Position numbers and translations under genes: made by a program. 52,932 nt of DNA from a virus, in IMG/VR virus record IMGVR_UViG_3300045988_134091, positions 1-52,932 of that record, one strand, 5' to 3'. Shown here in pieces: positions 3,900 through 49,737 of this stretch (its first letter is position 1; the number at the start of each line of letters is the position of its first letter). The notes beneath the pieces were generated by a model. That model was not told the origin of the DNA. It saw only the letters and a list, made by a program, of their open reading frames with translations, and made no database searches.

Positions 3900-4168
3900 T
3901 TGTCATACCCTCTAAACTGAATACGGGTGGGGCAACAGCCCCTCCCTTAATGCGGCTGACTGAGGAGCCTCCCAGCTGAAGTCAACGGTGACAAGCCCGT
4001 GTAAACTGCAGAGTCAAGGGACTGTATACCCGGCTCTTGTTTAGGCGCCAGCGAAGAGCAAAGGAAAAGAGTACAGAAGGAAGGAGTTCCCTTGGAGTGC
4101 TCCAAGGTAGAGAAGCTACTACAGCCAGGTGCTAAACCAGTCCTGGCATTAAGTTACAATAAACGGGG

Positions 4169-5134: not shown

Positions 5135-5474
5135 GGAGAAAGCTCTGCTGCCCCTCAGGGTCATAATTGAAGACCCAAACACAGGGGATAAATTTGTGAC
5201 TCATCCCAACTTGTTTGTTGGGGTCTATACCCGTAAAACAGAGGACATGCCTGAAGGAACGGTTGGTATTGGTCAGGTTCTGAAAGGTCACGCCAATACT
5301 CTTGAACAGATTTCTGTGGCAAAGGCACTGCAGGAAAAAGTTATCCCCATGCTTCTGGACCAGATTGAGTCCAAATTGACTGGGGAAGGAGGAGAGGATG
5401 CCAGAAACTATACCGACAAGTTGAGCGTACTTCTTTCCACTCTCCTGCTGGGTTCTCTGTTTTCAGACGATTAA
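5097..5474 (+). CDS. Hypothetical protein
   Basis: ggaggag lies upstream of ATG 5097, within track ORF 5088-5474. Confidence 0.5.
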   Translation: MSSVETSKKENTEEKALLPLRVIIEDPNTGDKFVTHPNLFVGVYTRKTEDMPEGTVGIGQVLKGHANTLEQISVAKALQEKVIPMLLDQIESKLTGEGGEDARNYTDKLSVLLSTLLLGSLFSDD

Positions 5475-5489
5475 ACAAGGAGGATTCCA

Positions 5490-6221
5490 ATGGCCCTGTT
5501 AGACTCAGCAGTTGACATCCAAGAATTGGGTCAACGCAACCTTTGGGTGCTGTATGGGAAGTCAAACAGTGGAAAAACATATGTTGCTTCCACTTTCCCC
5601 AAGCCCCTTCTGTACCTTCGGATTGGTGATGATGGTTCCAATACCATTGCTCATGTAGGCAGTATCAGAGCAATACCTATTTCCACGGTCAAAGAGCTCA
5701 AAGACATAGCAAAGGAGCTGCTCAAAGACAAGAAGTATGTGACTGTTGTGGCTGACACATTCTCTCTTATTGTCAATGAGTGGACAGACCAGAATGTAAT
5801 TAGCAAGAACAAAAAGATGACACAGCAGCTTTGGGGTGAGCTCAAGACCGAAACCGAAGAGGTTATCAAGGCCATGCATAAAGTTGCGAAGAACCATATT
5901 GTTGTTCTGACCTGTCATGAGAGTACAGACGCAATCGAAGGGATGGAAGATGAGATTGCCCCGGACATCCGCCCCTCTGTGTCAAAGGGTGCCCGCACAT
6001 ATTTGGAAGGTATGGCCAATTATGGTATTCATACCACCAAAATTATAAAAGAAATTACAAAGGGGAACAGCACCAAAGAAGTGGTGAAGTATGCGGCTGA
6101 CATTGGCCCCAACCCCTATTACTGGACCAAGCTCCAGATTGACCCATCAATCAAAGTCCCCAAACGCATCATCAATCCGACCTATGACAAGTTCATGGAG
6201 ATTATTGGTGCGGTGGAATAA
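5490..6221 (+). CDS. AAA_24 / Sak4-like RecA-fold ATPase
   Basis: Walker A LYGKSNSGKT; hydrophobic strand plus D (VTVVADTF); usual position next to a DUF669-type gene. Confidence 0.75.
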   Translation: MALLDSAVDIQELGQRNLWVLYGKSNSGKTYVASTFPKPLLYLRIGDDGSNTIAHVGSIRAIPISTVKELKDIAKELLKDKKYVTVVADTFSLIVNEWTDQNVISKNKKMTQQLWGELKTETEEVIKAMHKVAKNHIVVLTCHESTDAIEGMEDEIAPDIRPSVSKGARTYLEGMANYGIHTTKIIKEITKGNSTKEVVKYAADIGPNPYYWTKLQIDPSIKVPKRIINPTYDKFMEIIGAVE

Positions 6222-6248
6222 TTTAACAACTACAGGAGGAACCAAGCA

Positions 6249-6932
6249 ATGAGCAGAAAAGTCAAAGTCAACATGGAAGGTGTTGAGAGTTTCACCCGCT
6301 GCCCCGAAGGAGAGTGGCTGGCCCGTCTGAAGAAAGCTGAGATGGGTGAAGTGCAGGGTAGTGGTGATGACTGCATCAAGGCACAGTTTGAGGTCATCAA
6401 AGGCAGCGCCAAAGGAAATACTGTTTTTGAGACCTTCTCCCTGACCGAAAAGGCCCTGTGGAAGCTGAAAAGTTTCCTGGATGCAGTTGGCATGAAGTCC
6501 AATGGCAAGTTGACCCTGGACCTGGACAAGATGGAAGGCAAGGTGTGTATCATCGATGTCATCCATGATGAGTACAATGGCCAGAAGCGGGCCAAGATTT
6601 CTTCTTACATCAAGCCCGGTGAGGACGAAGATGATGAGGATGAGGACGACGATGACGAAGATGACGACATCGATGAGGACGATGAGGAGGAAGAAGCCCC
6701 CAAGAAGAAGGGCAAAAAGGCTGCTTCCAAGTCTGCTCCTGCCAAGAAGTCCAAGAAGCGTCCTGAGCCGGAAGATGAGGATGAAGACGAAGATGAGGAG
6801 GAAGATGAACCTGCTCCTGCCAAGTCTAAGAAGGGCAAGAAAGCTGCCCCTGCCAAGTCCAAGAAGAAAGCCAAGGATGAGGACGATGACGAAGACGATG
6901 AGGACGATGATTGGGAAGAGGACGATGACTGA
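6249..6932 (+). CDS. DUF669-like protein (putative ssDNA-binding) with long Lys-rich/acidic block tail ending DDDWEEDDD
   Basis: N-terminal PEGEWLARLKKAE...KAQFEVIKGSAKGNTVFETFSL pattern typical of DUF669; aromatic-acidic C-terminal tip as in SSB tails. Confidence 0.6.
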   Translation: MSRKVKVNMEGVESFTRCPEGEWLARLKKAEMGEVQGSGDDCIKAQFEVIKGSAKGNTVFETFSLTEKALWKLKSFLDAVGMKSNGKLTLDLDKMEGKVCIIDVIHDEYNGQKRAKISSYIKPGEDEDDEDEDDDDEDDDIDEDDEEEEAPKKKGKKAASKSAPAKKSKKRPEPEDEDEDEDEEEDEPAPAKSKKGKKAAPAKSKKKAKDEDDDEDDEDDDWEEDDD

Positions 6933-33194: not shown

Positions 33195-35117
33195 TCATGG
33201 GATCGGTTCGTTGATGGTAGCGATAACTGCCGACGCATCAGTGCAGATCAGACTTACGCGGATGTAATGCTCTGCGGATGCTGTGACCGTGACGATGTCT
33301 CCGCTGCTGGTAAAATGAAGACTATTCCATGCATACCCGTTGTATAGGTAGCCCGCGCTTATAAACATTGCTGTTGCGCTATATGCCACCGCTATGCTGT
33401 GCCCATCGTTCGCTGCAGGAAGGCTCACACCCTTGATACGAAGTGTATCGCCAGCTTTCAGGTGGATCAAGCTTGTAGCGTTCATATTTGCGCCAATCGT
33501 CGCCCAGCCCGCTTGCGCTTTGTTCGTACCGCTCCCTGCGCTCAACCTTGTGTCTGCAGAGATTCCGACTGTATCAAGGATGTTTGTAACGGTCGCAGCG
33601 CATGTAATTACAATATTGCCCGTTACCTTGGCAATAGTGATCGTGTTCCCGGACACCGCCGACGCGGAAATATCTGTTCCACCCATTGTGACAGTGATCG
33701 CACCGAGCTTCTTGTATGTTCCCGTCGGAGAGAGCATCGTTGTGTAAGCTGCACCCTCGGCAATGGTATTCGCCGTGTTAGACGATGCGCAGTTGATCAG
33801 ATTGCGTGTGATACTGTAATGTACAGTCGGCGCAGAGGCCGCCGCAGTAATCGTTATTGCCCCCGTTACATTGGCGATGTTGATTGCGCCGCTTCCGGCC
33901 GAATAAGCAGTGGCCGTTATATCAACGCCGCCCATTTTGATCACTACCGACGTGATCGTCTTCCCGTTATCCGCCGAGAGTACTGCAGTATAAGCATCCC
34001 CATAGTCTACCTGCGCTGCGCCATTGCTAATACTGCATCCTGTGAGATTTTTTGTAATTGATTGATACCAGTGCAACACTTCGGGCGTCCCATTGATCAT
34101 AGCCGCGCGGTAAGCGTTGATGTAGGCCATCGACATTCCGCACGTTCCCACGGCAAAATGCACGCATTTGTCACGGAACGTGTCTCCGGAAACGGCGTTG
34201 ATCGCATTGATAAGCCCCTTCCACTCTGGCTCATTACGGCGGCGGGCAAGTGCGTCTGTCCCGGAGCCGGAATAAAAGGTAGTCAACTCGTAGTCTTTGT
34301 CGATGTCGGACTGGCTCATGCCGAGCAGCCCCTCCAGCACGCAGGCCAGCGTGCCTGTACGGTCCGCACCTGCGGTGCAGTGAAAATATACCGGCTCACG
34401 ATGCGTCACTGCGTCGATAACGCATCGAAGATAGAGCTGCCACGTTGCAACCGGCGTCAGCGCGTAGGACGCCGCCTTGTCAGCAATTGTAAACCGTACA
34501 TCGTTACCAAGCGGGGATTCCGTTGCAACGTCACCGTCGGACGGATCGCGTCCCTCTTTGCCTCTGAGGTCGATTTCATGCTGCACACCGAACTGGCCAA
34601 CCAGCACCGCCCGGTCTGCTGCAGAGATACGCCCGCCGCGAATCAGCAGTCCATATTTCACCGTGCCGCCGTCACAAGCCCAGCCACCAAGGTCGCGTAC
34701 ATTCCACGCCTCGGCGGAGTTGTCCCGCGTGCGAATCCATCTTAATGCGTCCAGCGGTTTGAGCGTCCCAGCTTTCCCGCCAGAGGCAAATGGCGTGAGC
34801 ACATTTGGCACTTCGTTGTAGTACGTAACGCCGCCAACCGTCTGCCCGATGGGCTTGTAATTGCTCACTATCGCTGTTGCGGGGGCATAATTTGCAATTT
34901 GAGATGTGCTGTAATCGCCGGGGTCATAGGTCACGTTGGCCAGATAATGACGCACCGCCTCTGGGCACTGATGCCACTCGAATGCTTCACTCCCAGAAAG
35001 CGCCCGCACAGCATCTGCCATATCAGCAACTTTGTACTTCAGCGTGGACCCGTTTTTTTCGCGGATAGCATCTGCGATGTCCTGTATGGAAGCTTCTTCG
35101 TAAAGCTTCTTTGCCAT
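33195..35117 (-). CDS. Structural (fibre-like) protein containing a CX5R protein-tyrosine-phosphatase-like domain
   Basis: VYFHCTAGADRTGTLACV (HCxxGxxRT P-loop); N-terminal IADAIREKNGS...MADAVRAL fibre-type motif; two Ig-like repeats (MGGVDITATAYS / MGGTDISASAVS). Confidence 0.7.
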   Translation of the reverse strand: MAKKLYEEASIQDIADAIREKNGSTLKYKVADMADAVRALSGSEAFEWHQCPEAVRHYLANVTYDPGDYSTSQIANYAPATAIVSNYKPIGQTVGGVTYYNEVPNVLTPFASGGKAGTLKPLDALRWIRTRDNSAEAWNVRDLGGWACDGGTVKYGLLIRGGRISAADRAVLVGQFGVQHEIDLRGKEGRDPSDGDVATESPLGNDVRFTIADKAASYALTPVATWQLYLRCVIDAVTHREPVYFHCTAGADRTGTLACVLEGLLGMSQSDIDKDYELTTFYSGSGTDALARRRNEPEWKGLINAINAVSGDTFRDKCVHFAVGTCGMSMAYINAYRAAMINGTPEVLHWYQSITKNLTGCSISNGAAQVDYGDAYTAVLSADNGKTITSVVIKMGGVDITATAYSAGSGAINIANVTGAITITAAASAPTVHYSITRNLINCASSNTANTIAEGAAYTTMLSPTGTYKKLGAITVTMGGTDISASAVSGNTITIAKVTGNIVITCAATVTNILDTVGISADTRLSAGSGTNKAQAGWATIGANMNATSLIHLKAGDTLRIKGVSLPAANDGHSIAVAYSATAMFISAGYLYNGYAWNSLHFTSSGDIVTVTASAEHYIRVSLICTDASAVIATINEPIP

Positions 35118-40989: not shown

Positions 40990-41158
40990 GCATTTACTCC
41001 CAAAATAAACAAGATTTGTGTATTTTTCACGATTTTTCTTGAGTTTTACCCTCAAAATAAATAGAAATTCGAGCCCAGGGGGCACGCCCTATACCCGGCG
41101 CAGCCGATTTTACCGAAAAACATGTGAGTGTTCATGTATTCAGACTTGTTTACACTTT

Positions 41159-41214
41159 CACGATTATAACGCCGTAATCGTGTCTTGAACCACGCGATTA
41201 TGGCGGCGTATCGC
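41159..41214. repeat. Two related short inverted repeats upstream of the late operon
   Basis: cacgatta-taacgccg-taatcgtg (41159-82) and gcgatta-tggcggc-gtatcgc (41194-214). Confidence 0.6.
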
Positions 41215-41672
41215 ATCTGTGGAAATACACTCAAGCCCTCATAATTCCATACAAGTACACGACTATTTTCTGTTTTCCCTTGAGGGGTTGAGCCCTTTTC
41301 CTTGACTTTTGAGGGAGGCTTTTTCTTGATATTACTTCTGGGAGTTATTCATTCACCCCGAAAAATAGGCGGAAATGCGAAAAATTGCTTGATACTACTC
41401 CCGCGAGTAATGCAAAAATAGGTAAAATAGTCTCATAATCACACTCAAGTGCACGAAAATGGTGGTGAAGGTTCATTGGTGAAAAAGTGAGAAAACGAAA
41501 CTTTCTCTCAATGGTGGTTCAGCAGCCTTGAAAATCCCGCCTATTTTTAGTCCTATCTCTTTTATATATAAATAGTATATTATACTTTCTATTTTATATA
41601 TATTTTCTATTACCTCTAAAAATAGAGTGTAAAAATAGGCGTTGATAAACTTGAGTGAATCTTGTGTGTTTA

Positions 41673-41761
41673 CGCCTATTTTACTGTTACTCCACGGAGT
41701 AAAATGTTTGAACTCTCAGAGACACTTTTTCCGCTTTACGCCTATTTTTATACCTATTTTT
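41673..41761. repeat. 89-bp direct repeat, copy a
   Basis: Aligns without gaps to 41902-41990, about 85 percent identity by hand count. Confidence 0.85.
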
Positions 41762-41901
41762 CGATTTCATCCCCAATAAATCCGCCTATTTTTAGAAAAT
41801 TCCCCCATACTTGTACACCCTCCCCCCTTAAATTTTCGTTACCTCCGGCGATAGAGTGTAAAAATAGTCTCATAATTTGCCCCAAAATCCTTGGGGAATT
41901 G

Positions 41902-41990
41902 CGCCTATTTTACTGTTACTCCGTGAAGTAAAATCCTTGAACTCTCAGAGGCGATTTTTTCATTTCCCGCCTATTTTTATACCTATTTTT
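41902..41990. repeat. 89-bp direct repeat, copy b
   Basis: Aligns without gaps to 41673-41761. Confidence 0.85.
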
Positions 41991-41996
41991 GCAAAA

Positions 41997-42059
41997 TTGA
42001 TATATCAACAAATTCCTTGACCCCTATTGAGACTATTTTTACACTTTTTGATATATCAA
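41997..42059 (+). promoter_or_regulatory. Promoter-like element flanked by two identical 12-bp palindromes (candidate operators)
   Basis: TTGATATATCAA at 41997-42008 and 42048-42059; TTGACC 42017-22, 17 nt, TACACT 42040-45 between them. Confidence 0.5.
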
Positions 42060-42190
42060 AAACTCGCTCCCGCTGTGAAAAATTATTCTTGACTCCCAAG
42101 TGACCATTTGTGAGGATTTCAACAAGCCCAAGCAATAACTTCTGGAGCTGCCACAGTTTCAAAATTTTTTCAAAAGTTTCAAAATTTCGC

Positions 42191-42238
42191 TTGACTTTTC
42201 CAATTCTTGGTAGTATGATATGATTGTAAAGAGGAAAG
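42191..42238 (+). promoter_or_regulatory. Class A promoter A3 plus conserved leader box
   Basis: TTGACT 42191-96, 17 nt, TATGAT 42214-19, then ATGATTGTAAAGAGGAAAG. Confidence 0.75.
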
Positions 42239-42287
42239 AACACTCAAAGAAAACACGACAGGCCAAAAGGCCGGAAAGGACAACAAA

Positions 42288-42779
42288 ATGGAAAGCATTA
42301 AAGTCACCTCTCAGAATCAGCTTGATAAGCTGCCGACCAATTACATTGGAAGAATTTGCGTTTGCTTCGGGACTCCGATCAACCCCGCAATTATAAGAGG
42401 CGAGCATAAATACGCCACTATTCTAGTCGCTGGCCACAGTTGCGCGGTAGTTATGGGCGATGCCCACATCATCGCGCGCGACAGCAGCAGCGTTGTGGCA
42501 CTTGGCGGCAGCACTGTTGCGGCGCACAATAGCAGCCATGTCGAGGCACGAGACGTCAGCAGCGTTGTGGCTTTTGATTATAGCACCGTCGTCGCTTGGG
42601 ATCGCAGCCACGTCGAGGCACGCGGCCACGTATGCGTCGACGCGCGCGATGACAGTGAGATTAACGTCGTTATGCTGAACAACACCATTGTCGCGCGGGA
42701 CAACAGCAAAGTTGAGGCATGGAGCGGCAACAACATCACGGCGCTTGGCAACGCCACTGTCCTGTATTTTGATCTCTAA
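42288..42779 (+). CDS. Beta-solenoid-like repeat protein (about 8-residue xSxVxAxD repeats)
   Basis: SSHVEARD/VSSVVAFD/YSTVVAWD/RSHVEARG/HVCVDARD... tandem units; GC-rich; first gene after promoter A3. Confidence 0.65.
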   Translation: MESIKVTSQNQLDKLPTNYIGRICVCFGTPINPAIIRGEHKYATILVAGHSCAVVMGDAHIIARDSSSVVALGGSTVAAHNSSHVEARDVSSVVAFDYSTVVAWDRSHVEARGHVCVDARDDSEINVVMLNNTIVARDNSKVEAWSGNNITALGNATVLYFDL

Positions 42780-42797
42780 TCCCGCACCACTGATGTG

Positions 42798-42854
42798 CCC
42801 AACTGACGAGAGCCGGATGGCGACCGGCCGAAACGTCCTGATGGGCGTCTTGGG
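42798..42854 (+). ncRNA. Type I hammerhead ribozyme HH-2
   Basis: Stem I CCCAA/UUGGG. CUGACGA 42803-09. Stem II GCCGG/CCGGC. GAAA 42830-33. Stem III ACGUCC-UGAU-GGGCGU. GUC 42847-49. Compensatory changes in stems II and III relative to HH-1. Confidence 0.85.
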
Positions 42855-42898
42855 AAGCCAAAACAGCAGGCCGCAGTGCGGCCGGAAAGGACAACAAA

Positions 42899-43054
42899 AT
42901 GAAAGTATTTGGAGACCCGCGCGCACGGGCAAAGGCGCGCAAATACATCGTCTGGGGCATCGAGGATGGTATCGTCTGCGCAAGCTTCCTCGGTGGTATC
43001 GCGCTGGCTGGATGGGTATTCCATGTGATCTTCACGGCATTGGGGGTGGAATGA
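42899..43054 (+). CDS. Small TM protein (51 aa)
   Basis: Hand translation MKVFGDPRARAKARKYIVWGIEDGIVCASFLGGIALAGWVFHVIFTALGVE; same leader sequence as gene 42288. Confidence 0.45.
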   Translation: MKVFGDPRARAKARKYIVWGIEDGIVCASFLGGIALAGWVFHVIFTALGVE

Positions 43055-43326
43055 TGGAGAATCCAATCGAGAAGGTGCGTGAGTTGCTGAACCGGCCGCG
43101 CTCAAGTACAGATTTCTCGCCGGCTGCAAGATACGCCGTCAGCAGATTGTGCGACTATGCCGCGCAGGAGCACGAGCAGCGGGAGAAGGCGGAAACCATG
43201 CTCTGTAACGAACGGCGCAAGGCACTTGCGTTTTCCGCAGAAATGGCGCGGCAGGAACGCAACATCGACGACCTGCGGCAGCAGCTGTCATTTATGCAAC
43301 AGGCAATGCAGGACGCGGGGATGTAA
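43051..43326 (+). CDS. Small coiled-coil protein (91 aa)
   Basis: ATGA overlap with the previous ORF; internal part of track ORF 42688-43326. Confidence 0.5.
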   Translation: MMENPIEKVRELLNRPRSSTDFSPAARYAVSRLCDYAAQEHEQREKAETMLCNERRKALAFSAEMARQERNIDDLRQQLSFMQQAMQDAGM

Positions 43327-43333
43327 ATCTGAA

Positions 43334-43469
43334 TCCCACCTGACGATGGCCCAGCTGGTAACTGGCCGAAACACCCCGAAACGGAAAGCCTGGTTGGAAA
43401 GTACCTGCAACGACAGGGAGGATACAATTAGATGCGCCGTGGCGATAGTGCGAGAGGGGTGTCGTGGGA
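43334..43469 (+). ncRNA. Type I hammerhead ribozyme HH-3 with a roughly 78-nt insertion in stem III
   Basis: Stem I UCCCAC(43334-39)/GUGGGA(43464-69). CUGACGA 43340-46. Stem II GGCC.AG/CU.GGCC. GAAA 43368-71. Stem III ACACCCC(43371-77)/GGGGUGU(43456-62). GUC 43461-63. Confidence 0.65.
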
Positions 43470-43507
43470 AACCACCCAATCTTGAAACCATATAGGAGGT
43501 ATTCAAC

Positions 43508-43771
43508 ATGAAGTTTGAAACCGTGAGCCCGGAAACCGTGAACAAGCTCTTCAAGCCCACCAAGCTCCAGACTATCCTTGACTCATTTATGCGCAGTGAT
43601 GCTCTGGCTGTCCGCTGCGTGATGGCTCCTGGAGAATACGCCAATGCAGACTCTGCTCAGAGTAGCTATCACGCCGCAATCAAGCGGTTGGGTTATCCGA
43701 TTGCAGCCCGTGTCTTCAATGGGGATATGTATCTTATCAAAATCAGTCCTGACAAGGAGGAGAACAAATGA
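43508..43771 (+). CDS. Hypothetical protein
   Basis: taggagg RBS. Confidence 0.6.
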   Translation: MKFETVSPETVNKLFKPTKLQTILDSFMRSDALAVRCVMAPGEYANADSAQSSYHAAIKRLGYPIAARVFNGDMYLIKISPDKEENK

Positions 43772-43812
43772 GCATTTCTAAAGTCATTCAAGAAGGAGGA
43801 TTTTGAGAAGCT

Positions 43813-44106
43813 ATGAACAGTGTACCATTTCAGTGCTTGGAAAGTTCTGAGCCACTTGGTAGCGGTATAACCAGAGAAATTTGGTTCATTACCACAGCTG
43901 AGGGTCAGCCTGTAAGACGCACAGTGTACAAGGAGGAGGATGGCTCAGTGGTAGCCATTCAGGACTATGGGCAAGGACTGAGTACTGATTTGTATGTTGA
44001 GGCTATGTTCTATGAGCTTTTCAAAGGAGAAGACAACTGGTTGAAGATTCAGACCGACAGTGGGGTATATAGCACCAGTCGCATACAGTTGTTCAATATG
44101 AGGTGA
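43813..44106 (+). CDS. Hypothetical protein
   Basis: ORF track; aggagg upstream. Confidence 0.55.
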
Positions 44107-44110
44107 AACC

Positions 44111-44380
44111 ATGAATGCTATCAATATTGGATTGGGCAACTTTGTCTCCGCAGACCGGGTGGTTGCCATTGTGAGTCCGGAATCTGCCCCCATCAAGCGT
44201 ATGGTACAGGAGGCCAAGGACAAGGGAACGGCAGTTGATTCCACCTATGGTCGTAGAACAAGAGGGGTGTTGATTATGGATAGCGGGCAGCTTGTGCTGT
44301 CCTCTCTCCAGCCCTCTACGATTGTTGCCAAGAGCACAACAAAGAATGCCAAAGAAAAGGCGGTTGATGACGATGACTGA
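44111..44380 (+). CDS. remA: RemA (DUF370) family DNA-binding regulator homolog
   Basis: [68 protein letters not shown] matches the B. subtilis RemA pattern recalled from memory. Confidence 0.85.
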
Positions 44381-44564
44381 TTGTGTACTGTTCTCCAAAG
44401 AAGACTATGACAGCATACTATCTCATCTCAAGTCAATACAGATTGAGTGTGAGAATTCTCAAGCCATCAATCTGTCTGGTCGGAGAAACAACTCATACCA
44501 TATCTGTGAGATTGAGAGACACATCGAAGCAATTGAGGCCCTGCTGAAGAAGGAGGGGCTGTAA
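44367..44564 (+). CDS. Hypothetical protein (65 aa)
   Basis: ATG 44367 lies inside track ORF 44292-44564. Confidence 0.45.
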
Positions 44565-44800
44565 TGGATAAAGGCTTTCTCAGGCCCTGTGAAGTCACAG
44601 TTGAATCCAAAGGGGGGAAGACTGTATACAAAGGTTGGTTTCATTGCTGGGAGCATTATTCAGAAGTTGTTGGTGAATCTCCTTTGAGGGGTGGTCACTC
44701 TGCTGGTCAAATCTCTTTTGTTCTTGGTATTGTTGAGAATGAGGAAGGGCAGATTGCCCGGTTTTACCCAACACAGATACGGTTTACAGACCGAGATTGA
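44564..44800 (+). CDS. Hypothetical protein
   Basis: ORF track; its ATG begins on the last base of the upstream stop codon (TAATG overlap). Confidence 0.55.
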   Translation: MDKGFLRPCEVTVESKGGKTVYKGWFHCWEHYSEVVGESPLRGGHSAGQISFVLGIVENEEGQIARFYPTQIRFTDRD

Positions 44801-44806
44801 AAATAC

Positions 44807-44844
44807 AAGCCCTTGTGGAAGCTACACAGTTTCCGCAGGGGCTT
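44807..44844 (+). terminator. 14-bp hairpin immediately upstream of promoter A4
   Basis: aagcccttgtggaa / ttccgcaggggctt (includes G:U pairs), 10-nt loop, followed by gaaaattttt. Confidence 0.55.
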
Positions 44845-44875
44845 GAAAATTTTTCAACAAATTTCAAAATAATGC

Positions 44876-44923
44876 TTGACTTCTTGTAGTGCTGGTAGTA
44901 TACTAATGATTGTAAGGAACAGG
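44876..44923 (+). promoter_or_regulatory. Class A promoter A4 plus conserved leader box
   Basis: TTGACT 44876-81, 17 nt, TATACT 44899-904, then AATGATTGTAAGGAACAGG. Confidence 0.75.
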
Positions 44924-44953
44924 AACACCTGATAAAACAAGGAGGATTACAAA

Positions 44954-45127
44954 ATGATGTATACCGTAACAACCTATTTCAAGCTTGAGCGTTTGTACCA
45001 TATAACGGAAAAGATTGAAGCAGAGAATCCAAAAGAGGCAAAGAAAATTGCACTTGTAAAAGTTTTGTCTTCCAATCCTGAAGCTACAAACATCCGTCAA
45101 AGGGCTCAAAAATCTCACAGAGAATAA
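44954..45127 (+). CDS. Small early protein (57 aa), followed immediately by a hammerhead ribozyme
   Basis: aaggagg RBS; promoter A4 upstream; hand translation MMYTVTTYFKLERLYHITEKIEAENPKEAKKIALVKVLSSNPEATNIRQRAQKSHRE. Confidence 0.55.
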   Translation: MMYTVTTYFKLERLYHITEKIEAENPKEAKKIALVKVLSSNPEATNIRQRAQKSHRE

Positions 45128-45184
45128 CCCAACTGATGAGAGCTGGATGGTGACCAGCCGAAACCAGGGCAACCTGGTCTTGGG
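45128..45184 (+). ncRNA. Type I hammerhead ribozyme HH-1
   Basis: Stem I CCCAA(45128-32)/UUGGG(45180-84). CUGAUGA 45133-39. Stem II GCUGG/CCAGC, closed by G45140:C45159. GAAA 45160-63. Stem III ACCAGG-GCAA-CCUGGU. Cleavage triplet GUC 45177-79. Confidence 0.85.
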
Positions 45185-45213
45185 AAACCAAACCAAACTG
45201 AGGAGGTTCAATT

Positions 45214-45603
45214 ATGAATTACATATACATCAACACCCGTGACAATCGTCAGTACATCCTCAACCCCATGATCACAATGGGTGAGAAGGTTTGCTTGGTT
45301 GATATGGCCAATTGTGAGGACAAGTTTGTATCCCTCAAGACCTTGAAGCGGTGGTACAGCAAAACCATTACTGAGCAGCCTGTTGTTGAACTGCGGGCCT
45401 TTACTGGTATGAAGATTGGACTATTCCGGGCTGAGCTTGCTACCAATACCAACACTCTGTATCTGTGGACCAAGCAGAACAAGCTCCTGACCTTTGACCT
45501 AGATATGGGGAATCAGACCAATGCCAAGAATCCCAAGTTTGCCAATCGCATTCACGACACATACGACTTCTTGGAAAGCTCCTTGAACTGGGTTTTGTCT
45601 TGA
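45214..45603 (+). CDS. Early protein with C-terminal FTG domain
   Basis: gaggagg RBS; RAFTGMKIGLF...FDLDMGNQTN...KFANRI. Confidence 0.65.
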   Translation: MNYIYINTRDNRQYILNPMITMGEKVCLVDMANCEDKFVSLKTLKRWYSKTITEQPVVELRAFTGMKIGLFRAELATNTNTLYLWTKQNKLLTFDLDMGNQTNAKNPKFANRIHDTYDFLESSLNWVLS

Positions 45604-45636
45604 ATCGAAATTTTTGAGAGAAGTTCAAATTTGTGC

Positions 45637-45686
45637 TTGACTTTTCCTTGATACAAGAGTATAATCATAATTGTAAAGAGGAAAAC
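45637..45686 (+). promoter_or_regulatory. Class A promoter A5 plus conserved leader box
   Basis: TTGACT 45637-42, 17 nt, TATAAT 45660-65, then CATAATTGTAAAGAGGAAAAC. Confidence 0.75.
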
Positions 45687-45733
45687 ACATACAGACCGGA
45701 ACACCTGTACATTTGAAAAGGAGATTGAATACA

Positions 45734-46483
45734 ATGAAAAAGACCATCATCACCTACACCAGCCGCAAGAATGCTTCCAAGGTTTACACCCTGGTTTCCT
45801 TCGATGAGGCCAATAACACCGCTGTTCTGACTGATTCCAATGGAACTGAGCACATCATGAAGCTGACCACTCTTCGCAAGACCTTCAAGAAGTCCGTTGA
45901 GGAAGTCGAGGTTGAGGAGCCCAAGACCGAAACCGAGACTATGACCAAGCATCAGAAGAGTGCCCTGAAGAATATCCGCTGCGGATACAACTGGGTCATC
46001 GGTGGCCTGGAAAACGCCGTTCAGGATGGTGAGATGGAAGAGATGCCCGCTGTCGAGGAGATGTTTGAGGAAGTGTACGATGAGGTTACCAGCTGCACCT
46101 TTGATGAAGGTTTCGGTGATTCCCAGGCTGCTCCCATCTGCATGAAGTTCGCTGGTAAGAAGTTCATCCGTGAGCAGATTGCCAAGCTGTTCCGGGCTGA
46201 TGGTTATGAGGTGTCTGAGGAACTGGTTGCTGTTCCTGAGCACAAGACTGGTCACAGCAACTTTGTAGATGGTGAGCGCATCAATCTCCGCAAGGATGAG
46301 GGCGAGAGAGTGGTCAAGGTCAGAGCCTTCACGGGTATGCTGATTGGGACATTCAAGGTGGAGAAGGAAACCAAGACCACCATCACCGTCAAGACTGCCA
46401 AAGGAAAGATGAAGTTTGATCGAGAAACTGGAATCCAGGTTAACTCGAACAACAAGAAGTTCGCCAACCGCATCGAAGTCTGA
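45734..46483 (+). CDS. Early protein with C-terminal FTG domain
   Basis: aaaggag lies upstream of ATG 45734; RAFTGMLIGTF...FDRETGIQVN...KFANRI. Confidence 0.65.
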   Translation: MKKTIITYTSRKNASKVYTLVSFDEANNTAVLTDSNGTEHIMKLTTLRKTFKKSVEEVEVEEPKTETETMTKHQKSALKNIRCGYNWVIGGLENAVQDGEMEEMPAVEEMFEEVYDEVTSCTFDEGFGDSQAAPICMKFAGKKFIREQIAKLFRADGYEVSEELVAVPEHKTGHSNFVDGERINLRKDEGERVVKVRAFTGMLIGTFKVEKETKTTITVKTAKGKMKFDRETGIQVNSNNKKFANRIEV

Positions 46484-46595
46484 TGCGGTGGTGGATTTCA
46501 CGAAAAGAAAAGCAGGGGTGAGATAGGGGAAGAAAAGTCTGTGAGTGCACGATATAATGATGTGATTTCCGGGCTTTTCTCCCCGTTTCCCGGCC

Positions 46596-46625
46596 TTTAC
46601 TTTTCCGAGGGTGATACCTTATAAT
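46596..46625 (+). promoter_or_regulatory. Class B promoter B2 (CTTTACTTTTCCGA type)
   Basis: TTTACT 46596-601, 18 nt, TATAAT 46620-25; upstream of the HD gene. Confidence 0.55.
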
Positions 46626-46666
46626 ATATGCATGAGGCTGAATGGCCAGAAAAGGAGGTATCACCA

Positions 46667-47245
46667 GTGAAACAGTATCTGTTATCGGAGGAAGATCGCA
46701 AGAAGGACTTGTTGGAGCTGCTTGAAAAGAACAATGTTCCGCTTGAGTTGTTCCCGTATGAGTGGTTGTGTACCACAGATTTCTTCAGAGCACCTGCTTC
46801 AAAAGGATTCCACGCAGCATATCCGGGGGGATTGTATGACCACTGTGTAAATGTCACTTCCCAGCTCTTGGATATGAGAGACAAGGGAGTGACGCAAACT
46901 TGGGGCCGGGTTGAAAGCCCAATTATTGTGGGCATGCTACACGATGTCACAAAGATCGGTATGTACATCCTGAGTCAAGACATGAACCCAATCAAGCAGG
47001 GGATTGAAACATTTCACATCAAAAACCCTCTGTACAGCGGCTTTGGTGGACATGGGTATGATTCAGTATGCAAGATTGAACAGCACATGAGGCTGACAGA
47101 AGAGGAACGGTTGTGTATCAGATACCATATGGGTGCCTATGAGACAGATGATTGGAGCGGGTATGATAGAGCAATCAGAAAGTTTCCAAATGTACTCTGG
47201 ACACACACCGCTGATATGTTGGCCTCCAAACTGATGGAGGATTGA
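46667..47245 (+). CDS. HD-domain phosphohydrolase
   Basis: aaaggagg lies 8 nt upstream of GTG 46667; FHAAYPGGLYDHCVNV and MLHDVTKIG (H...HD) motifs. Confidence 0.65.
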   Translation: MKQYLLSEEDRKKDLLELLEKNNVPLELFPYEWLCTTDFFRAPASKGFHAAYPGGLYDHCVNVTSQLLDMRDKGVTQTWGRVESPIIVGMLHDVTKIGMYILSQDMNPIKQGIETFHIKNPLYSGFGGHGYDSVCKIEQHMRLTEEERLCIRYHMGAYETDDWSGYDRAIRKFPNVLWTHTADMLASKLMED

Positions 47246-47249
47246 AACA

Positions 47250-47918
47250 ATGGTTCTATACTCTGGGAACAAGGGGAAACCTCTCAAGAAAAGACACTCC
47301 AACCCGTACTGCATATTTTTCTTTATCTGCTGTGTGCTTCTGATGGCCTCAGTACTGTTGAATGTGAAGGCCATTAACCTGCTCAGGGCCTCTGTGGAAC
47401 AAACCAAACAGGCTATCTCTGTGGCAGAGGATGCACAGACGATTGCAAACCAGGCTGTGTACAATATGAGAACCACAAAATACCCTGAGCTTGAGCCTGA
47501 GTTATGCTGTGACAAGGAAGCCTATGTGGACTCTGTAGCGGCAGAATACCTGGCCAATGTTGCTTGGGGCGAGGCTCGTGGTTGCTCTGTGACAGAACAG
47601 GCAGCTGTTATGTGGTGTGTACTCAACAGAGTGGATAGCCCTTTGTACCCAGATTCTGTAGGGGAGGTTGTTACACAGAGGGCTCAATTTAATGGATATT
47701 CTGCAAGCAACCCGATTACTCCAGAGTTACTCCAGTTGGCTAATGATGTGTTGACCTATTGGTCTAAGGAGGATGACTCTGGCCGGGTTTTGCCAAAAGA
47801 ATATCTGTATTTCATCGGGGATGGTAAACATAACTATTTTTATAAAACATGGGGTGGCAATGCAACAGCTTGGGATTGGAGCTTGCCCAGCCCTTATAAG
47901 GAGGATACGATAAAATGA
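47250..47918 (+). CDS. SleB/CwlJ-family cell wall hydrolase with N-terminal signal-anchor TM
   Basis: YCIFFFICCVLLMASVLL TM; NVAWGEARGCSVTEQAAVMWCVLNRV...QRAQFNGY. Confidence 0.75.
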   Translation: MVLYSGNKGKPLKKRHSNPYCIFFFICCVLLMASVLLNVKAINLLRASVEQTKQAISVAEDAQTIANQAVYNMRTTKYPELEPELCCDKEAYVDSVAAEYLANVAWGEARGCSVTEQAAVMWCVLNRVDSPLYPDSVGEVVTQRAQFNGYSASNPITPELLQLANDVLTYWSKEDDSGRVLPKEYLYFIGDGKHNYFYKTWGGNATAWDWSLPSPYKEDTIK

Positions 47919-48922
47919 GAACCAAGCCTGCAGATACCCTGTATTGCGGAGTAGACAAGGAGCGCATCAAGAAAGCTAAACCTGTGCTGAATGAGCGCAA
48001 TCTTTTGTACCTGTACAATTTTATCAAGCGAAGATATGTCATCCACTTGAGAAAGGATGTTTTGAAGAAAGACCCACCCTGGACCAATGACCAAGTGCTG
48101 CGGAATTTCCGGTTCACCAACATTCGCCGAGAGCATGACAAGGAGAGCAAGTGGGTGATTGAGCACATCGCCAATAACCCTGAGCTGTCTTATGAGGACA
48201 AACTGCTCAATGCCATCCTTTTTCGGCTTTACAACAAGCATGAAACCGCTGAGCTGATTTCCATGCCGATCAAGTTCAGCCAAACCCCTGACTGGAATCC
48301 TGAGTGGTACAGAAGTCTGTTTGAAGCTGCTCTGGCTGAAGATCCTCATGTGAAGTTCTTTACTGGTGCATTTAACACCGGAGGCCTGAAGCGCGCCTTG
48401 AAATGGTATCTTCCCAAGGATGACCCAAAAAACAGTATGCCCATGAGGGTGCTTTGGTTTATCCAGTATCTTATTGGGGAAGACATCGTTGGTCAAGTGA
48501 AGAGCTGTACCAGACAAGATGAAGTATGTAATACATTGTCATCTTATATGGGTCTTGGGAAATTCCTTTCCTACCAGATTTTTGTTGATATGACTTATAT
48601 CAAGGAGTTTCCATTCTCTGAGAATGAGTACACACAGGCTGGCCCCGGCTGCGTTATGGGCCTCGACTATCTGTTTGAAGACAGAGATGGGATGACCTAT
48701 GAGGAATGTCTGTTTTGGCTGAGGGATAACCTGGACAGGCTGTTTGTGGAGGAGCTGGGAAAAGACTGGGATGCCAAACGGGTATTCTGGGATTTGCCTG
48801 AAGAAGACAGGTGCTTCAATGTTATGTCCCTGGAAAATTGCTTCTGCGAGTTGTCAAAGTACATCCGAGCCAAGGATGGAACAGGCAGACCTCGGAAAAA
48901 GTACAATGGTGGTGGAAGATGA
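47915..48922 (+). CDS. DNA base hypermodification protein family (aGPT-Pplase / 5-hmdU-DNA-kinase helical-domain-like)
   Basis: PPWTNDQVLRNFRFTNIRREHDKESKW signature plus GKFLSYQIFVDMTY...GPGCVMGL and ENCFCELSKY, recalled from phage thymidine-hypermodification genes. Confidence 0.55.
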   Translation: MRTKPADTLYCGVDKERIKKAKPVLNERNLLYLYNFIKRRYVIHLRKDVLKKDPPWTNDQVLRNFRFTNIRREHDKESKWVIEHIANNPELSYEDKLLNAILFRLYNKHETAELISMPIKFSQTPDWNPEWYRSLFEAALAEDPHVKFFTGAFNTGGLKRALKWYLPKDDPKNSMPMRVLWFIQYLIGEDIVGQVKSCTRQDEVCNTLSSYMGLGKFLSYQIFVDMTYIKEFPFSENEYTQAGPGCVMGLDYLFEDRDGMTYEECLFWLRDNLDRLFVEELGKDWDAKRVFWDLPEEDRCFNVMSLENCFCELSKYIRAKDGTGRPRKKYNGGGR

Positions 48923-49737
48923 TTCCTGTATTTGTACCATCCTATCAGAGACCTGACGCTGTATTTTTGAAGAGGAGTGTTCTGTACAAGTTTCCTCTAT
49001 ACGTGTTCATTCGCAAAGAAGAGAAAAGTGAATACGAGTGGCTGAAATGTCGCCCTGAAACAACCTTGGTTTTACTTAAGAATGTGGAAAACATTGGAGA
49101 AACCAGACGAGCAATGTTCAATTATGCTGTCAAGAAAGGAATTGACAAAGTTTTCATGATTGATGATGATGTTTCTCGGTTAGACATATCCGTGTGGGAT
49201 GAGGAAAGAGAAGTAGTTCGTGCTTCTGGAACAGTCAAAGGGAAACCTGAGGATTGGAGAAAGGCTCTGACCAAATGGGAGACCGAATGGGAAAATGAAG
49301 CCCTATTTGGTGCATCCTATCGCCCATTCAGCTGGTCTATGAAGAAAGAAGTGTTTGGAGGGAAAAGTCGGGCACAACTACAACAAGCTGTTGGTGTGAA
49401 TATTGCTCTTCTCAACTCTGCCGGCCTCAACTACCAAAGCAATTCTGTAGTTGGTAATGAAGATCTGTTTCTTCAACTGGAGTGCTATCAACATGGACTT
49501 GAGTGCCTAAAGACTTCTATGGTTCAGTATGACTGCCCAGCAATGGGTTCCGGTACAGGAGGATGCAACTCATCAGAATTGGGAACAATACAAGAAAAAC
49601 AAGAAGTCCGGGTAGAACGATTTTGTCGTGCTTGTACTGAGCCCTCTTTGATTCGTGTTGGCCAAACTCGTTCTGGCGTAAAGAGTGTGAAATTTGTTTG
49701 GTCACAAATTTCAAGATTGATGGAGGATACAAAATAA
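48919..49737 (+). CDS. GT-A-fold glycosyltransferase-like protein (TET/JBP-associated-glycosyltransferase-like)
   Basis: N-terminal IPVFVPSYQRPD strand; FMIDDDV (DxD); ATGA overlap with the upstream gene. Confidence 0.5.
   Translation: MIPVFVPSYQRPDAVFLKRSVLYKFPLYVFIRKEEKSEYEWLKCRPETTLVLLKNVENIGETRRAMFNYAVKKGIDKVFMIDDDVSRLDISVWDEEREVVRASGTVKGKPEDWRKALTKWETEWENEALFGASYRPFSWSMKKEVFGGKSRAQLQQAVGVNIALLNSAGLNYQSNSVVGNEDLFLQLECYQHGLECLKTSMVQYDCPAMGSGTGGCNSSELGTIQEKQEVRVERFCRACTEPSLIRVGQTRSGVKSVKFVWSQISRLMEDTK

What the first reader, a model, noticed from the sequence alone, without database searches (positions are those of the whole stretch)
42798..42854. Second type I hammerhead (HH-2) with compensatory stem changes relative to HH-1
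The sequence is CCCAA-CUGACGA-G-A-GCCGG-AUGGCGA-CCGGC-C-GAAA-CGUCC-UGAU-GGGCG-UC/UUGGG.

The core is intact (N7 is C here and U in HH-1, the one free core position), with a GUC triplet. Cleavage is predicted after C42849.

Stem II differs from HH-1 by a paired change: GCUGG/CCAGC becomes GCCGG/CCGGC. Stem III differs at four of six pairs, and every pair stays complementary (C:G to G:C, A:U to U:G, G:C to C:G twice). That is the covariation expected for a functional RNA, not for chance motif matches. The stem II loop AUGGYGA and the post-cleavage UUGGGAARCCA are conserved between the two copies.

HH-2 sits 18 nt after the stop of the solenoid-repeat gene and upstream of a 51-aa TM ORF.
Basis: seen in the sequence. 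Interest (0 to 1): 0.85.

Follow-up and report, generated by a model that had tools for sequence, protein, structure and literature searches.

The report
Phage hammerhead ribozyme on a gene cassette
The sequence is a well-supported self-cleaving hammerhead RNA of a kind known in phages since 2011, one of three in this genome; it sits at the end of a small accessory-gene cassette and probably cuts the messenger RNA between two genes.

Summary
Window 42798-42854 (+) reads exactly as described. It has a complete type I hammerhead core, three helices and a GUC site, with cleavage predicted between C42849 and U42850.

A covariance model built only from 123 copies in 74 other viral contigs scores it 75.7 bits (E~5e-19). 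The window has exactly three such hits: HH-1, HH-2 and HH-3.

Across 109 distinct family members, 94.5% of pair cells are canonical and 17 of 21 pairs show double changes. An independent set of 38 gives 96.6%.

Loop II G42819-G42820-C42821 pairs with G42857-C42858-C42859 in the "AAGCCA" tail, and the variable pair covaries (U:A, C:G, A:U, G:C). The element therefore ends at 42860.

HH-2 belongs to a 611-bp cassette (163-aa gene plus ribozyme) flanked by 25-nt direct repeats. The cassette is absent from a 95-98% identical relative and present at about 95% identity in unrelated phages.

Clustered prophage hammerheads with pseudoknots were described by Perreault et al. 2011, so this is a new member of a known kind. 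Rfam's thresholds miss the whole subclass. Self-cleavage itself is untested.

The parts
42798..42802 (+). Stem I, 5' strand (CCCAA)
   Evidence: Read. Pairs with 42850-42854. Stem I is 99.8% paired across 109 family members.
42803..42809 (+). Catalytic core C3-A9 (CUGACGA; N7 = C)
   Evidence: CUGA[C/U/A]GA occurs in 106 of 109 distinct family members.
42810..42829 (+). Stem II hairpin: G42810:C42829, bulged A42811, GCCGG/CCGGC (42812-16 with 42824-28), and the 7-nt loop II AUGGCGA (42817-42823)
   Evidence: The five inner pairs all show double changes and are 97.8% paired. Loop II is 7 nt in 105 of 109 members.
42819..42821 (+). Pseudoknot, loop II side (GGC). U42818 can add a fourth pair with A42860.
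   Evidence: Pairs with G42857-C42859. Family counts at the three pairs: 105/105, 103/106 and 105/106 canonical, with UA 56, CG 26, AU 15 and GC 4 at the variable pair. Replicated.
42830..42833 (+). Core G12 A13 A14 and A15.1 (GAAA)
   Evidence: CGAAA occurs in 107 of 109 members.
42834..42848 (+). Stem III hairpin CGUCC-UGAU-GGGCG plus U16.1 (42848), which pairs with A42833
   Evidence: Stem III is 99.1% paired and five of six pairs show double changes. The loop length is free, ranging from 2 to 80 nt.
42849..42850 (+). Predicted cleavage site: C17 (42849) | U1.1 (42850)
   Evidence: Position follows from the hammerhead consensus. U16.1-C17 occurs in 108 of 109 members. Cleavage was not tested.
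42850..42854 (+). Stem I, 3' strand (UUGGG)
42855..42860 (+). Tail AAGCCA: a 2-nt linker plus the pseudoknot partner of loop II. It can alternatively pair with 42850-42853 to form a hairpin flush with the 5' end of the cleaved product.
   Evidence: pseudoknot. (alternative hairpin: 4 bp in 64 of 103 members, predicted at the 5' end of all three 3' products).
42869..42901 (+). Leader of the downstream gene: GC hairpin GGCCGC-AGU-GCGGCC (42869-42883), Shine-Dalgarno-like GGAAAGGA (42884-42891) and ATG at 42899
42269..42293 (+). Left copy of the 25-nt direct repeat GGCCGGAAAGGACAACAAAATGGAA (hairpin arm, ribosome-binding site and start codon of the 163-aa gene)
   Evidence: It is the left boundary of the 611-bp presence/absence cassette.
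42880..42904 (+). Right copy of the direct repeat (96% identical), at the start of the 51-aa ORF
   Evidence: L114 has a single copy.
42288..42779 (+). 163-aa repeat-rich (solenoid-like) protein gene, the cargo of the cassette that ends in HH-2
   Evidence: phrog_15773, E 3e-10. It is 94% identical in L086-L088.
42899..43054 (+). 51-aa ORF with a C-terminal hydrophobic segment, the first gene on the 3' cleavage product
   Evidence: In L114 it directly follows the promoter.
42191..42219 (+). Promoter-like site TTGACT-17-TATGAT that would drive the transcript carrying HH-2 and HH-3
   Evidence: consensus match only. Conserved in L114.
43335..43474 (+). HH-3: same class, with U inserted before stem II and a 79-80-nt insert in the stem III loop. 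C17 is 43463.
   Evidence: 42.4 bits. Orthologues with a 4-nt loop (L001) and a 28-nt insert (L002).
45128..45190 (+). HH-1: same class. C17 is 45179.
   Evidence: 80.5 bits. Identical ribozyme in L001-L003 beside divergent upstream DNA.
44806..44845 (+). Strong terminator-like hairpin (18 pairs plus a T run) that would separate the HH-2/HH-3 transcript from the HH-1 transcript
   Evidence: consensus match only.

Best explanation
HH-2 is a functional type I hammerhead ribozyme. It is transcribed as part of a rightward early-region polycistronic mRNA of a siphovirus-like phage that probably infects gut Clostridia.

Once the whole 63-nt element (42798-42860) has been transcribed, three things are expected to form:
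- stems I, II and III;
- a 3-4-bp pseudoknot between loop II (U)GGC and the tail GCC(A), which holds stems I and II parallel;
- as a result, an active core that cleaves the RNA between C42849 and U42850.

The upstream product is the 163-aa gene mRNA. It keeps the entire ribozyme body as a structured 3' end with a 2',3'-cyclic phosphate.

The downstream product starts with a 5'-OH at UUGGGAAGCCAA and has a 49-nt leader containing a GC hairpin and the ribosome-binding site of the 51-aa gene.

The likely effect is to uncouple the two cistrons physically. An accessory gene cassette inserted into a 5' UTR would then leave the downstream gene with a defined leader that resembles its native one.

Shown: sequence, fold, covariation, family membership, genomic context and cassette polymorphism.

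Inferred: self-cleavage, the nature of the ends, and the consequences for stability or translation. The sign of that effect (stabilising or destabilising) is not known.
For: - All invariant hammerhead positions are present, and the three helices abut the core.
- The minimum-free-energy fold of the isolated 57-mer is the three-way junction.
- Independent model R2, trained without the window or its close relatives, gives 75.7 bits (E 4.6e-19). Only three hits occur in the window, all on the coding strand.
- Covariation: 94.5% of 2268 pair cells are canonical, 17 of 21 pairs show double changes, 0 of 500 shuffles reach this, and slid controls give 29-41%. Replicated at 96.6%.
- The pseudoknot is supported by four pair types at the variable position. 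That position was not constrained by the search pattern or by the model.
- Geometry is fixed where tertiary contact needs it and free elsewhere: stem I 5 bp, linker AA in 97 of 109, loop II 7 nt in 105 of 109, stem III loop 2-80 nt.
- Context across 116 distinct copies: median 9 nt from the upstream stop codon and median 44 nt from the cleavage site to a start codon preceded by a Shine-Dalgarno-like motif. HH-2 has 18 and 49 nt.
- The window contains terminase, SPP1-type portal and tape-measure genes, so it is a phage.
- Cassette: L114 is 95-98% identical but lacks 42294-42904 and has one repeat copy. L058/L086 share only 42249-42902, at 95.4%.
- Published precedent: tandem prophage hammerheads cleave in vitro and in E. 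coli, and pseudoknots are needed for fast cleavage (PMC3088659).
Against: - There is no experimental or transcript evidence for this element.
- Rfam RF00163 scores it 16.2 bits against a gathering score of 34.
- Folding energy is not better than shuffles (z = -1.08).
- In a 121-nt context the minimum-free-energy fold replaces stem I with other pairings, so misfolding could compete.
- Stem I plus the pseudoknot is short (5 + 3-4 bp).
- The family alignments were partly gathered with a pattern that fixes the core and stem I, so their invariance there is partly ascertainment.
- The biological role of phage hammerheads is still undefined in the literature (PMC6765202).
- From my own knowledge, RNase J1 degrades the 5'-OH product of the glmS ribozyme in Bacillus. 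If the same applies in a Firmicute host, cleavage could destabilise the downstream message rather than protect it.
Confidence: 0.85

Rival explanations
1. The element cleaves, but cleavage is only the first step. Pairs of hammerheads (HH-2 with HH-3, or HH-2 with HH-1) would excise an RNA with 5'-OH and 2',3'-cyclic phosphate ends. That RNA would then be religated, by the ribozyme or by an RtcB-type ligase, into a circular or spliced RNA.
For: - Three same-strand type I hammerheads lie within 2.4 kb.
- HH-1 and HH-2 have identical stem I strands and compatible pseudoknot partners, so a chimeric ribozyme could form on ring closure.
- Perreault et al. raised this possibility.
Against: - Perreault et al. 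looked for spliced or circular products from tandem prophage hammerheads and found none.
- A strong terminator-like hairpin lies between HH-3 and HH-1.
- The excised segments are ordinary protein-coding genes with their own ribosome-binding sites.
Confidence: 0.05
2. The sequence is conserved mainly as DNA. It would be a shared intergenic linker that promotes homologous recombination and module shuffling between phages, with catalysis incidental or lost.
For: - Similarity breakpoints between related loci pile up at hammerhead edges.
- HH-1's 5' edge (45125-45128) is where similarity to L001, L002, L003 and L064 begins.
- Hammerhead intervals cover 1.5% of the DNA but hold 7.9% of breakpoints.
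Against: - A DNA linker would not need compensatory changes in three helices and a pseudoknot, or an invariant catalytic core.
- A share of 7.9% is about what is expected if breakpoints simply fall at gene boundaries, of which roughly one in ten carries a hammerhead.
- The HH-2 cassette recombined at the hairpin and ribosome-binding-site repeats, not within the ribozyme.
Confidence: 0.05
3. HH-2 is a decaying or inactive copy: a recently transferred relic that looks intact but no longer cleaves at physiological Mg2+.
For: - A sister lineage (L087, L088, L116) carries a clearly disabled copy with no 3' strand of stem I.
- L030 and L118 show other degenerate copies.
- The third pair of stem III in HH-2 is a U:G wobble, where the orthologue has C:G.
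Against: - Every core position, all 17 helix pairs and the pseudoknot are intact in HH-2.
- Its score is close to that of HH-1 (75.7 against 80.5 bits).
- The only differences from L058 are neutral.
Confidence: 0.04
4. The match is a chance motif, or a structure with another role such as an intrinsic terminator or attenuator hairpins.
For: - The simple motif search is not significant (5 found, 2.4 expected).
- Folding energy is not exceptional.
Against: - E 4.6e-19 with an independent covariance model.
- At least 170 related copies in viral, bacterial and metagenomic DNA, with covariation.
- No T run follows stems II or III on the + strand, and the terminator scan lists nothing here on the + strand.
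Confidence: 0.01

Closest known systems
Type I hammerhead ribozyme (Rfam RF00163, clan CL00010)
   Same: Same invariant core (CUGANGA, GAAA, UH), three helices, stem I open and stems II and III capped. Cleavage is expected 3' of C17.
   Different: Stems II and III are longer than in the Rfam seed, so the score is 16.2 bits against a gathering score of 34. The tertiary contact is a Watson-Crick pseudoknot between loop II and the 3' tail, not the loop/bulge contact of the Schistosoma or satellite-RNA type.
Clustered prophage hammerheads of Perreault et al. 2011 (Agrobacterium tumefaciens triple arrangement around ardA, Clostridium scindens, Azorhizobium caulinodans; PMC3088659)
   Same: Several hammerheads on one strand within about 2 kb flank single genes or short gene blocks of varying identity in phage DNA. 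A pseudoknot links the stem I and stem II regions. The proposed role is processing of polycistronic phage mRNA.
   Different: This is a different phage lineage (gut Clostridia, Oscillospiraceae-associated). I could not check whether this exact 5-bp stem I / AA / NCCA-tail subclass is in their alignments, because the supplements held as text contain no such sequence. The cassette polymorphism described here is not in that paper.
Pseudoknot-containing hammerhead with solved structure (PDB 8YDC; Zhan et al. 2024, PMC11300833)
   Same: Hammerhead core with a pseudoknot as the stabilising tertiary element.
   Different: In 8YDC the pseudoknot helix replaces helix II, giving a pistol-like connectivity. 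HH-2 keeps a normal 6-bp stem II, and its loop pairs with a tail 3' of stem I.
Synthetic ribozyme insulators such as RiboJ (my own knowledge; not checked in the library)
   Same: A self-cleaving ribozyme placed between an upstream sequence and a ribosome-binding site gives the downstream gene a fixed 5' leader, often followed by a hairpin, whatever lies upstream.
   Different: RiboJ is an engineered element derived from a satellite RNA. HH-2 is natural, and the insulating effect is only inferred here from comparing the window with L114.
glmS ribozyme (my own knowledge; Collins et al. 2007)
   Same: A self-cleaving RNA in a bacterial mRNA whose 5'-OH product determines the fate of the downstream message.
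   Different: glmS is ligand-dependent, lies in a 5' UTR and belongs to an unrelated fold. Its cleavage destabilises the message through RNase J1. Whether the same happens here is unknown.

Membership tests
Hammerhead ribozyme | Invariant core: C3 U4 G5 A6 N7 G8 A9; G12 A13 A14; A15.1-U16.1; H17 | tested here: met
   CUGACGA at 42803-09, GAAA at 42830-33, U42848, C42849.
Hammerhead ribozyme | Three helices around the core, with standard pairs next to it (1.1-2.1, 10.1-11.1, 15.1-16.1) | tested here: met
   A42802:U42850, G42810:C42829, A42833:U42848. The minimum-free-energy fold and centroid give the three-way junction.
Hammerhead ribozyme | Helices supported by compensatory change in homologues | tested here: met
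   94.5% and 96.6% of pair cells canonical, 17 of 21 and 16 of 20 pairs with double changes, 0 of 500 shuffles.
Hammerhead ribozyme | Tertiary contact between the stem I and stem II regions, needed for activity at physiological Mg2+ | tested here: met
   Pseudoknot between loop II GGN and the tail N'CC. It is 97-100% paired, with U:A, C:G, A:U and G:C at the variable pair. This is by covariation only, not by kinetics.
Hammerhead ribozyme | Site-specific self-cleavage giving 2',3'-cyclic phosphate and 5'-OH ends | not testable with these tools
   Needs in vitro transcription or end-specific RNA-seq.
Type I topology | Stem I open (5' and 3' ends of the motif); stems II and III closed by loops | tested here: met
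   Order along the strand: I-5', core, II hairpin, GAAA, III hairpin, UC, I-3'.
Rfam RF00163 Hammerhead_1 (database model, not a biochemical criterion) | Score at or above the curated gathering threshold (34 bits) | tested here: not met
   16.2 bits, E 0.33 on 251 nt. The alignment shows 18-nt and 10-nt insertions where the model expects 12 and 2. No hammerhead family reached its gathering score in the window or in 12 loci holding roughly 40 copies.
Clustered phage/prophage hammerheads (Perreault et al. 2011) | Two or more hammerheads on one strand flanking single genes or short gene blocks in phage DNA | tested here: met
   HH-2, HH-3 and HH-1 lie within 2.4 kb on the + strand, separated by 2 and about 6 small genes. 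Phage hallmark genes. Many related loci carry 2-6 copies.
Clustered phage/prophage hammerheads (Perreault et al. 2011) | All copies of the cluster cleave during transcription | not testable with these tools
   Shown for other clusters in PMC3088659, not for this one.

The most novel reading that the evidence does not exclude
Gene cassettes that end in a type I hammerhead may sometimes be moved or rearranged through an RNA intermediate.

The observation behind this:
- In L087, L088 and L116, similarity to the window, and similarity of L087 to its 90% relative L086, stops exactly at the scissile phosphate (...GGGCGUC|GACGGUCGAG...).
- A unique 32-nt filler and a different gene follow.
- This is the footprint expected if a cleaved 5' fragment (gene plus ribozyme body ending in a 2',3'-cyclic phosphate) had been joined to another nucleic acid and copied back into DNA.
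- Type I is the only hammerhead topology that leaves the catalytic body on the fragment with the reactive end, a point made by Perreault et al..

A milder reading is that HH-2 is a natural 'insulator' that makes accessory genes plug-and-play in 5' UTRs. That reading is more likely (about 0.3) but less surprising.
Probability: 0.03. Interest if true: 0.9.

Novelty: new member of a known kind. Interest (0 to 1): 0.38.

Why it matters
The hammerhead itself is textbook, and its occurrence in phage gene clusters has been known since 2011. What these ribozymes do for phages is still open.

This locus offers three practical handles on that question:
- A natural isogenic-like pair. The window and L114 are 95-98% identical and differ by the 611-bp gene-plus-HH-2 cassette inserted in the 5' UTR of the same gene. 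This allows a direct test of whether the ribozyme insulates the downstream gene.
- A cultured relative. Faecalibacterium phage FP_Brigit carries an unannotated member between gp72 and gp73.
- A covariance model for a subclass that Rfam's thresholds miss entirely: at least 170 copies in IMG/VR, GTDB genomes and metagenomes, mostly linked to Oscillospiraceae and other Clostridia. Standard annotation of gut phages is therefore blind to these elements.

Tried and rejected
1. Rfam at gathering thresholds found nothing in the window or in 12 hammerhead-rich loci. The permissive scan gave only a sub-threshold RF00163 hit plus two chance hits (M23, poplar-1) on the downstream hairpin.

2. The plain motif search was not significant.

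3. Folding-energy z-scores were uninformative.

4. blastn of 41000-47000 against GenBank phages gave no useful relative.

5. I looked for other hammerheads truncated exactly at C17.
   - A viral scan without the 3' requirement found only the L087 lineage, plus L118 with two stem I mismatches.
   - The apparent breaks in L040 and L122 are artefacts of my regular expression picking an early GTC.

6. I tested whether the L087 junction arose from recombination between two hammerheads.
   - The 32-nt filler is unique.
   - Of the 26 loci returned for the downstream 107-aa gene, two are L087/L088's own contigs. None of the other 24 has a hammerhead upstream, and they share only the ribosome-binding site.
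   - The idea is rejected, and the junction stays unexplained.

7. I tested whether hammerheads are recombination hotspots.
   - Breakpoints are about five times denser than uniform.
   - That is roughly what gene boundaries in general would give.
   - The clustering at ribozyme edges is largely because the conserved ribozyme extends BLAST alignments. Inconclusive, and not claimed.

8. Supplementary files of Perreault et al. held as text contain no sequences, so I could not check whether this subclass is in their data set.

9. The pseudoknot hammerhead of PDB 8YDC has a different architecture.

10. Literature searches for newer work on phage hammerhead function found nothing decisive.

11. The function of the 163-aa protein was not pursued beyond Pfam (no hit) and PHROGs (unknown function).

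Full report
**1. The observation**

In hammerhead numbering:
- The core C3-A9 is 42803-42809, with N7 = C.
- G12-A14 is 42830-42832.
- A15.1 (42833) pairs with U16.1 (42848).
- C17 is 42849.

The predicted scissile bond is therefore C42849|U42850.

The 163-aa repeat-rich ORF ends at 42779, 18 nt upstream. A 51-aa ORF with a hydrophobic C-terminus starts at 42899.

HH-1 (45128-45184) differs by one paired change in stem II and by four of six pairs in stem III, all still complementary. HH-3 (43335-43468) is the same design with a 79-80-nt insertion in the stem III loop.

**2. Is it more than chance?**

Simple measures say little:
- A bare core pattern gives 5 matches against 2.4 expected.
- The 57-mer does not fold better than its shuffles (z = -1.08), although its minimum-free-energy fold is the hammerhead three-way junction.
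- Rfam finds nothing at curated thresholds.
- In permissive mode Rfam gives RF00163 only 16.2 bits against a gathering score of 34. The model expects much shorter stems II and III.

The decisive test was an independent model.
- A pattern scan of IMG/VR for the shared design found 85 stretches.
- A seed model then found 134 copies in 81 sources.
- I rebuilt a model (R2) from 123 copies in 74 loci, excluding the window and its close relatives L001-L003, L027, L058 and L064.
- I searched the whole window with filters off.

Results: HH-1 80.5 bits, HH-2 75.7 bits (E 4.6e-19), HH-3 42.4 bits. The next hit scores 10.9 bits (E 0.39). There are exactly three, all on the coding strand.

**3. Covariation and the pseudoknot**

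On 109 distinct sequences:
- 94.5% of 2268 pair cells are canonical.
- 17 of 21 pairs show changes on both sides.
- None of 500 column shuffles reaches the observed values.
- Sliding the 3' partners by 1-3 columns drops pairing to 29-41%.

A second set from bacterial genomes and metagenomes (38 distinct sequences) gives 96.6% with the same controls.

In fact they pair with each other: loop GGN with tail N'CC.
- At the variable pair the family shows U:A 56, C:G 26, A:U 15 and G:C 4, with a single non-pair.
- Further variants have GAA/UUC, GAC/GUC and AGC/GCU.
- That position was an N in the search pattern and is unpaired in the covariance model, so this test is unbiased.

In HH-2 the pairs are G42819:C42859, G42820:C42858 and C42821:G42857. 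U42818:A42860 is optional, being present in only 45 of 105 family members. The element therefore ends at 42860, not 42854.

Geometry is fixed where a tertiary contact needs it and free elsewhere:
- Stem I is 5 bp.
- The linker is AA in 97 of 109.
- Loop II is 7 nt in 105 of 109.
- The stem III loop ranges from 2 to 80 nt.

One caveat applies. The search pattern fixed the core and most of stem I for about two thirds of the sequences, so their invariance there is partly ascertainment.

**4. Context**

The window looks like a complete siphovirus-type genome. It encodes:
- a large terminase, an SPP1-type portal and a tape-measure protein;
- a family A DNA polymerase and an SNF2 helicase;
- a 5-hmdU DNA kinase and a RemA-like protein.

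HH-2 lies in a rightward block of small genes of unknown function. That block sits downstream of a promoter-like TTGACT-17-TATGAT at 42191-42219. A strong terminator-like hairpin at 44806-44845 separates it from the HH-1 unit.

Across 116 distinct family members the layout is stereotyped:
- The upstream stop codon is a median of 9 nt before the ribozyme.
- A start codon preceded by a Shine-Dalgarno-like motif is a median of 44 nt after the cleavage site.
- HH-2 has 18 and 49 nt.

The same class occurs in genomes of Oscillibacter, Colidextribacter, Acutalibacter, other Oscillospiraceae, Christensenellales and other Clostridia. It also occurs, unannotated, in the cultured Faecalibacterium phage FP_Brigit between gp72 and gp73. 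A gut Clostridia host is therefore likely.

**5. HH-2 is part of a mobile cassette**

- A 25-nt direct repeat, GGCCGGAAAGGACAACAAAATG(G/A)AA, occurs at 42269-42293 and 42880-42904, a spacing of 611 nt.
- Metagenomic contig L114 is 95-98% identical to the window from 41676 to 49674. It has one repeat copy and goes straight from the promoter and hairpin leader into the 51-aa gene. It has no 163-aa gene and no HH-2.
- L001, an 80-85% relative, also lacks HH-2.
- The otherwise unrelated phage L058/L086 shares only 42249-42902, at 95.4% identity. That segment is the leader hairpin, the 163-aa gene, HH-2 and the second hairpin.

The unit 'gene plus 3' ribozyme' has therefore moved recently between phages, by recombination at short shared leader sequences.

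After cleavage the downstream gene would carry a 49-nt leader with the same hairpin and ribosome-binding site that it has behind the promoter in L114. This is why I favour an insulating or uncoupling role. That step is inference.

**6. How it most likely works**

Shown: the sequence, fold, covariation, context and polymorphism above.

Inferred from established hammerhead chemistry, and from Perreault et al. 2011, who showed that tandem prophage hammerheads cleave in vitro and in E. coli and that pseudoknots are needed for fast cleavage:
- The RNA cleaves itself after C42849.
- The whole ribozyme stays on the 3' end of the 163-aa gene message, which ends in a 2',3'-cyclic phosphate.
- The downstream message begins with a 5'-OH.

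A further possibility is that the tail switches partners. The sequence N1.1-UGG GAAN CCA-N' can form a hairpin flush with the new 5' end.
- It has 4 bp in 64 of 103 family members.
- It is predicted at the 5' end of all three products in this window, at -2.5 to -4.5 kcal/mol for the isolated 12-mers.
- It would compete with stem I and the pseudoknot, which would favour product release.

Much of that complementarity is forced by the stem I and pseudoknot sequences, so I treat it as a hypothesis.

Whether cleavage stabilises or destabilises either message in a Firmicute host is unknown.

**7. Comparison with what is known**

This is a type I hammerhead in a clustered phage arrangement with a pseudoknot. 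All three features were described in PMC3088659.

It differs from the pseudoknot hammerhead of PDB 8YDC, where the pseudoknot replaces helix II.

The 2019 review still lists the function of bacterial and phage hammerheads as undefined, and I found nothing newer.

The finding is therefore a new member of a known kind. Two practical points stand out:
- Rfam's thresholds miss the subclass completely: no hammerhead reached its gathering score in 128 kb of loci holding roughly 40 copies.
- The window/L114 pair offers a clean natural experiment.

**8. An unexplained detail**

In L087, L088 and L116 the HH-2 orthologue is intact up to GUC. Similarity to the window, and similarity of L087 to its 90% relative L086, stops exactly at C17. 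A unique 32-nt filler and a different gene follow, so stem I and the pseudoknot cannot form.

I found no second example and no evidence for recombination between two hammerheads.

It may be coincidence. An RNA-level origin cannot be excluded, but it rests on one event.

**9. Verdict**

Confidence that HH-2 is an active self-cleaving hammerhead is about 0.85. Novelty is low and interest is moderate to low (0.38).

Noticed in passing
window 42269-42904; L114 7350-7387; L058 6542-7194: A 611-bp presence/absence cassette (163-aa gene plus HH-2) is flanked by 25-nt direct repeats made of a hairpin arm, a ribosome-binding site and ATG. It is absent from the 95-98% identical contig L114 and present at 95% identity in an unrelated phage.
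   Followed up: yes
L087 3511-3562, L088 3511-3562, L116 731-777 (-): The HH-2 orthologue is intact to GUC, but homology to the window, and homology of L087 to its close relative L086, ends exactly at the scissile phosphate. The 3' strand of stem I and the pseudoknot tail are replaced by a unique 32-nt filler and a different gene. The copy is predicted dead. The origin of the junction is unexplained.
   Followed up: yes
window 43335-43474; L001 3515-3592; L002 1082-1184: The stem III loop of HH-3 holds a 79-80-nt insertion in the window. Orthologues have 4 nt in L001 and a 28-nt insertion in L002. The insert has its own predicted hairpins and could be a regulatory or protein-binding add-on.
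   Followed up: partly
window 42850-42861, 43464-43475, 45180-45191: The first 12 nt of each predicted 3' cleavage product (N-UGG GAAN CCA-N') can fold into a small hairpin flush with the 5' end. This is mutually exclusive with stem I and the pseudoknot. It has 4 bp in 64 of 103 family members and a GAAA loop in 47.
   Followed up: partly
window 41360-42060: The divergent intergenic region between the leftward structural operon and the rightward early genes is packed with 'CCTATTTTT / AAAAATAGG' boxes in both orientations. It also contains a 229-nt tandem duplication (41661-41761 and 41890-41990) and paired TTGATATATCAA palindromes. It looks like an operator array or a replication origin.
   Followed up: no
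window 47915-48922 (+): The ORF matches Pfam HMUDK_hel, the 5-hmdU DNA kinase helical domain (E 1.8e-63). This suggests the phage hypermodifies thymidine in its DNA.
   Followed up: no
window 44111-44380 (+): A RemA-like protein (PF04025, E 1.7e-31), a family of bacterial biofilm/matrix regulators, is encoded among the early genes between HH-3 and HH-1.
   Followed up: no
window 33195-35117 (-): A 640-aa protein with a tyrosine-phosphatase domain (Y_phosphatase3) sits inside the head-morphogenesis gene block, next to a Mu F-like protein that carries a weak anthrax lethal-factor-like segment. It may be an ejected effector.
   Followed up: no
L093 (MAG Geminicoccaceae, JANQPX010000040.1) 1900-6354: Six hammerheads of a related but more divergent design (stem I GCCGC/GCGGC, shorter stem II) lie within 4.5 kb of an alphaproteobacterial contig. 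The class is therefore not confined to Clostridia phages.
   Followed up: no
L031 9767-9845, L010 1117-1198, L111 5752-5829, L005 858-933: Some family members carry core variants: U4 to C (CCGAUGA, CCGACGA), and one copy has UGAAAG and H17 = A. These are candidates for slow or inactive natural variants.
   Followed up: no
NC_047909.1 52968-53041 (L128 7990-8063): The cultured Faecalibacterium phage FP_Brigit has an unannotated member of this hammerhead class between gp72 and gp73 (57 bits with model R2). It is usable as an experimental system.
   Followed up: partly
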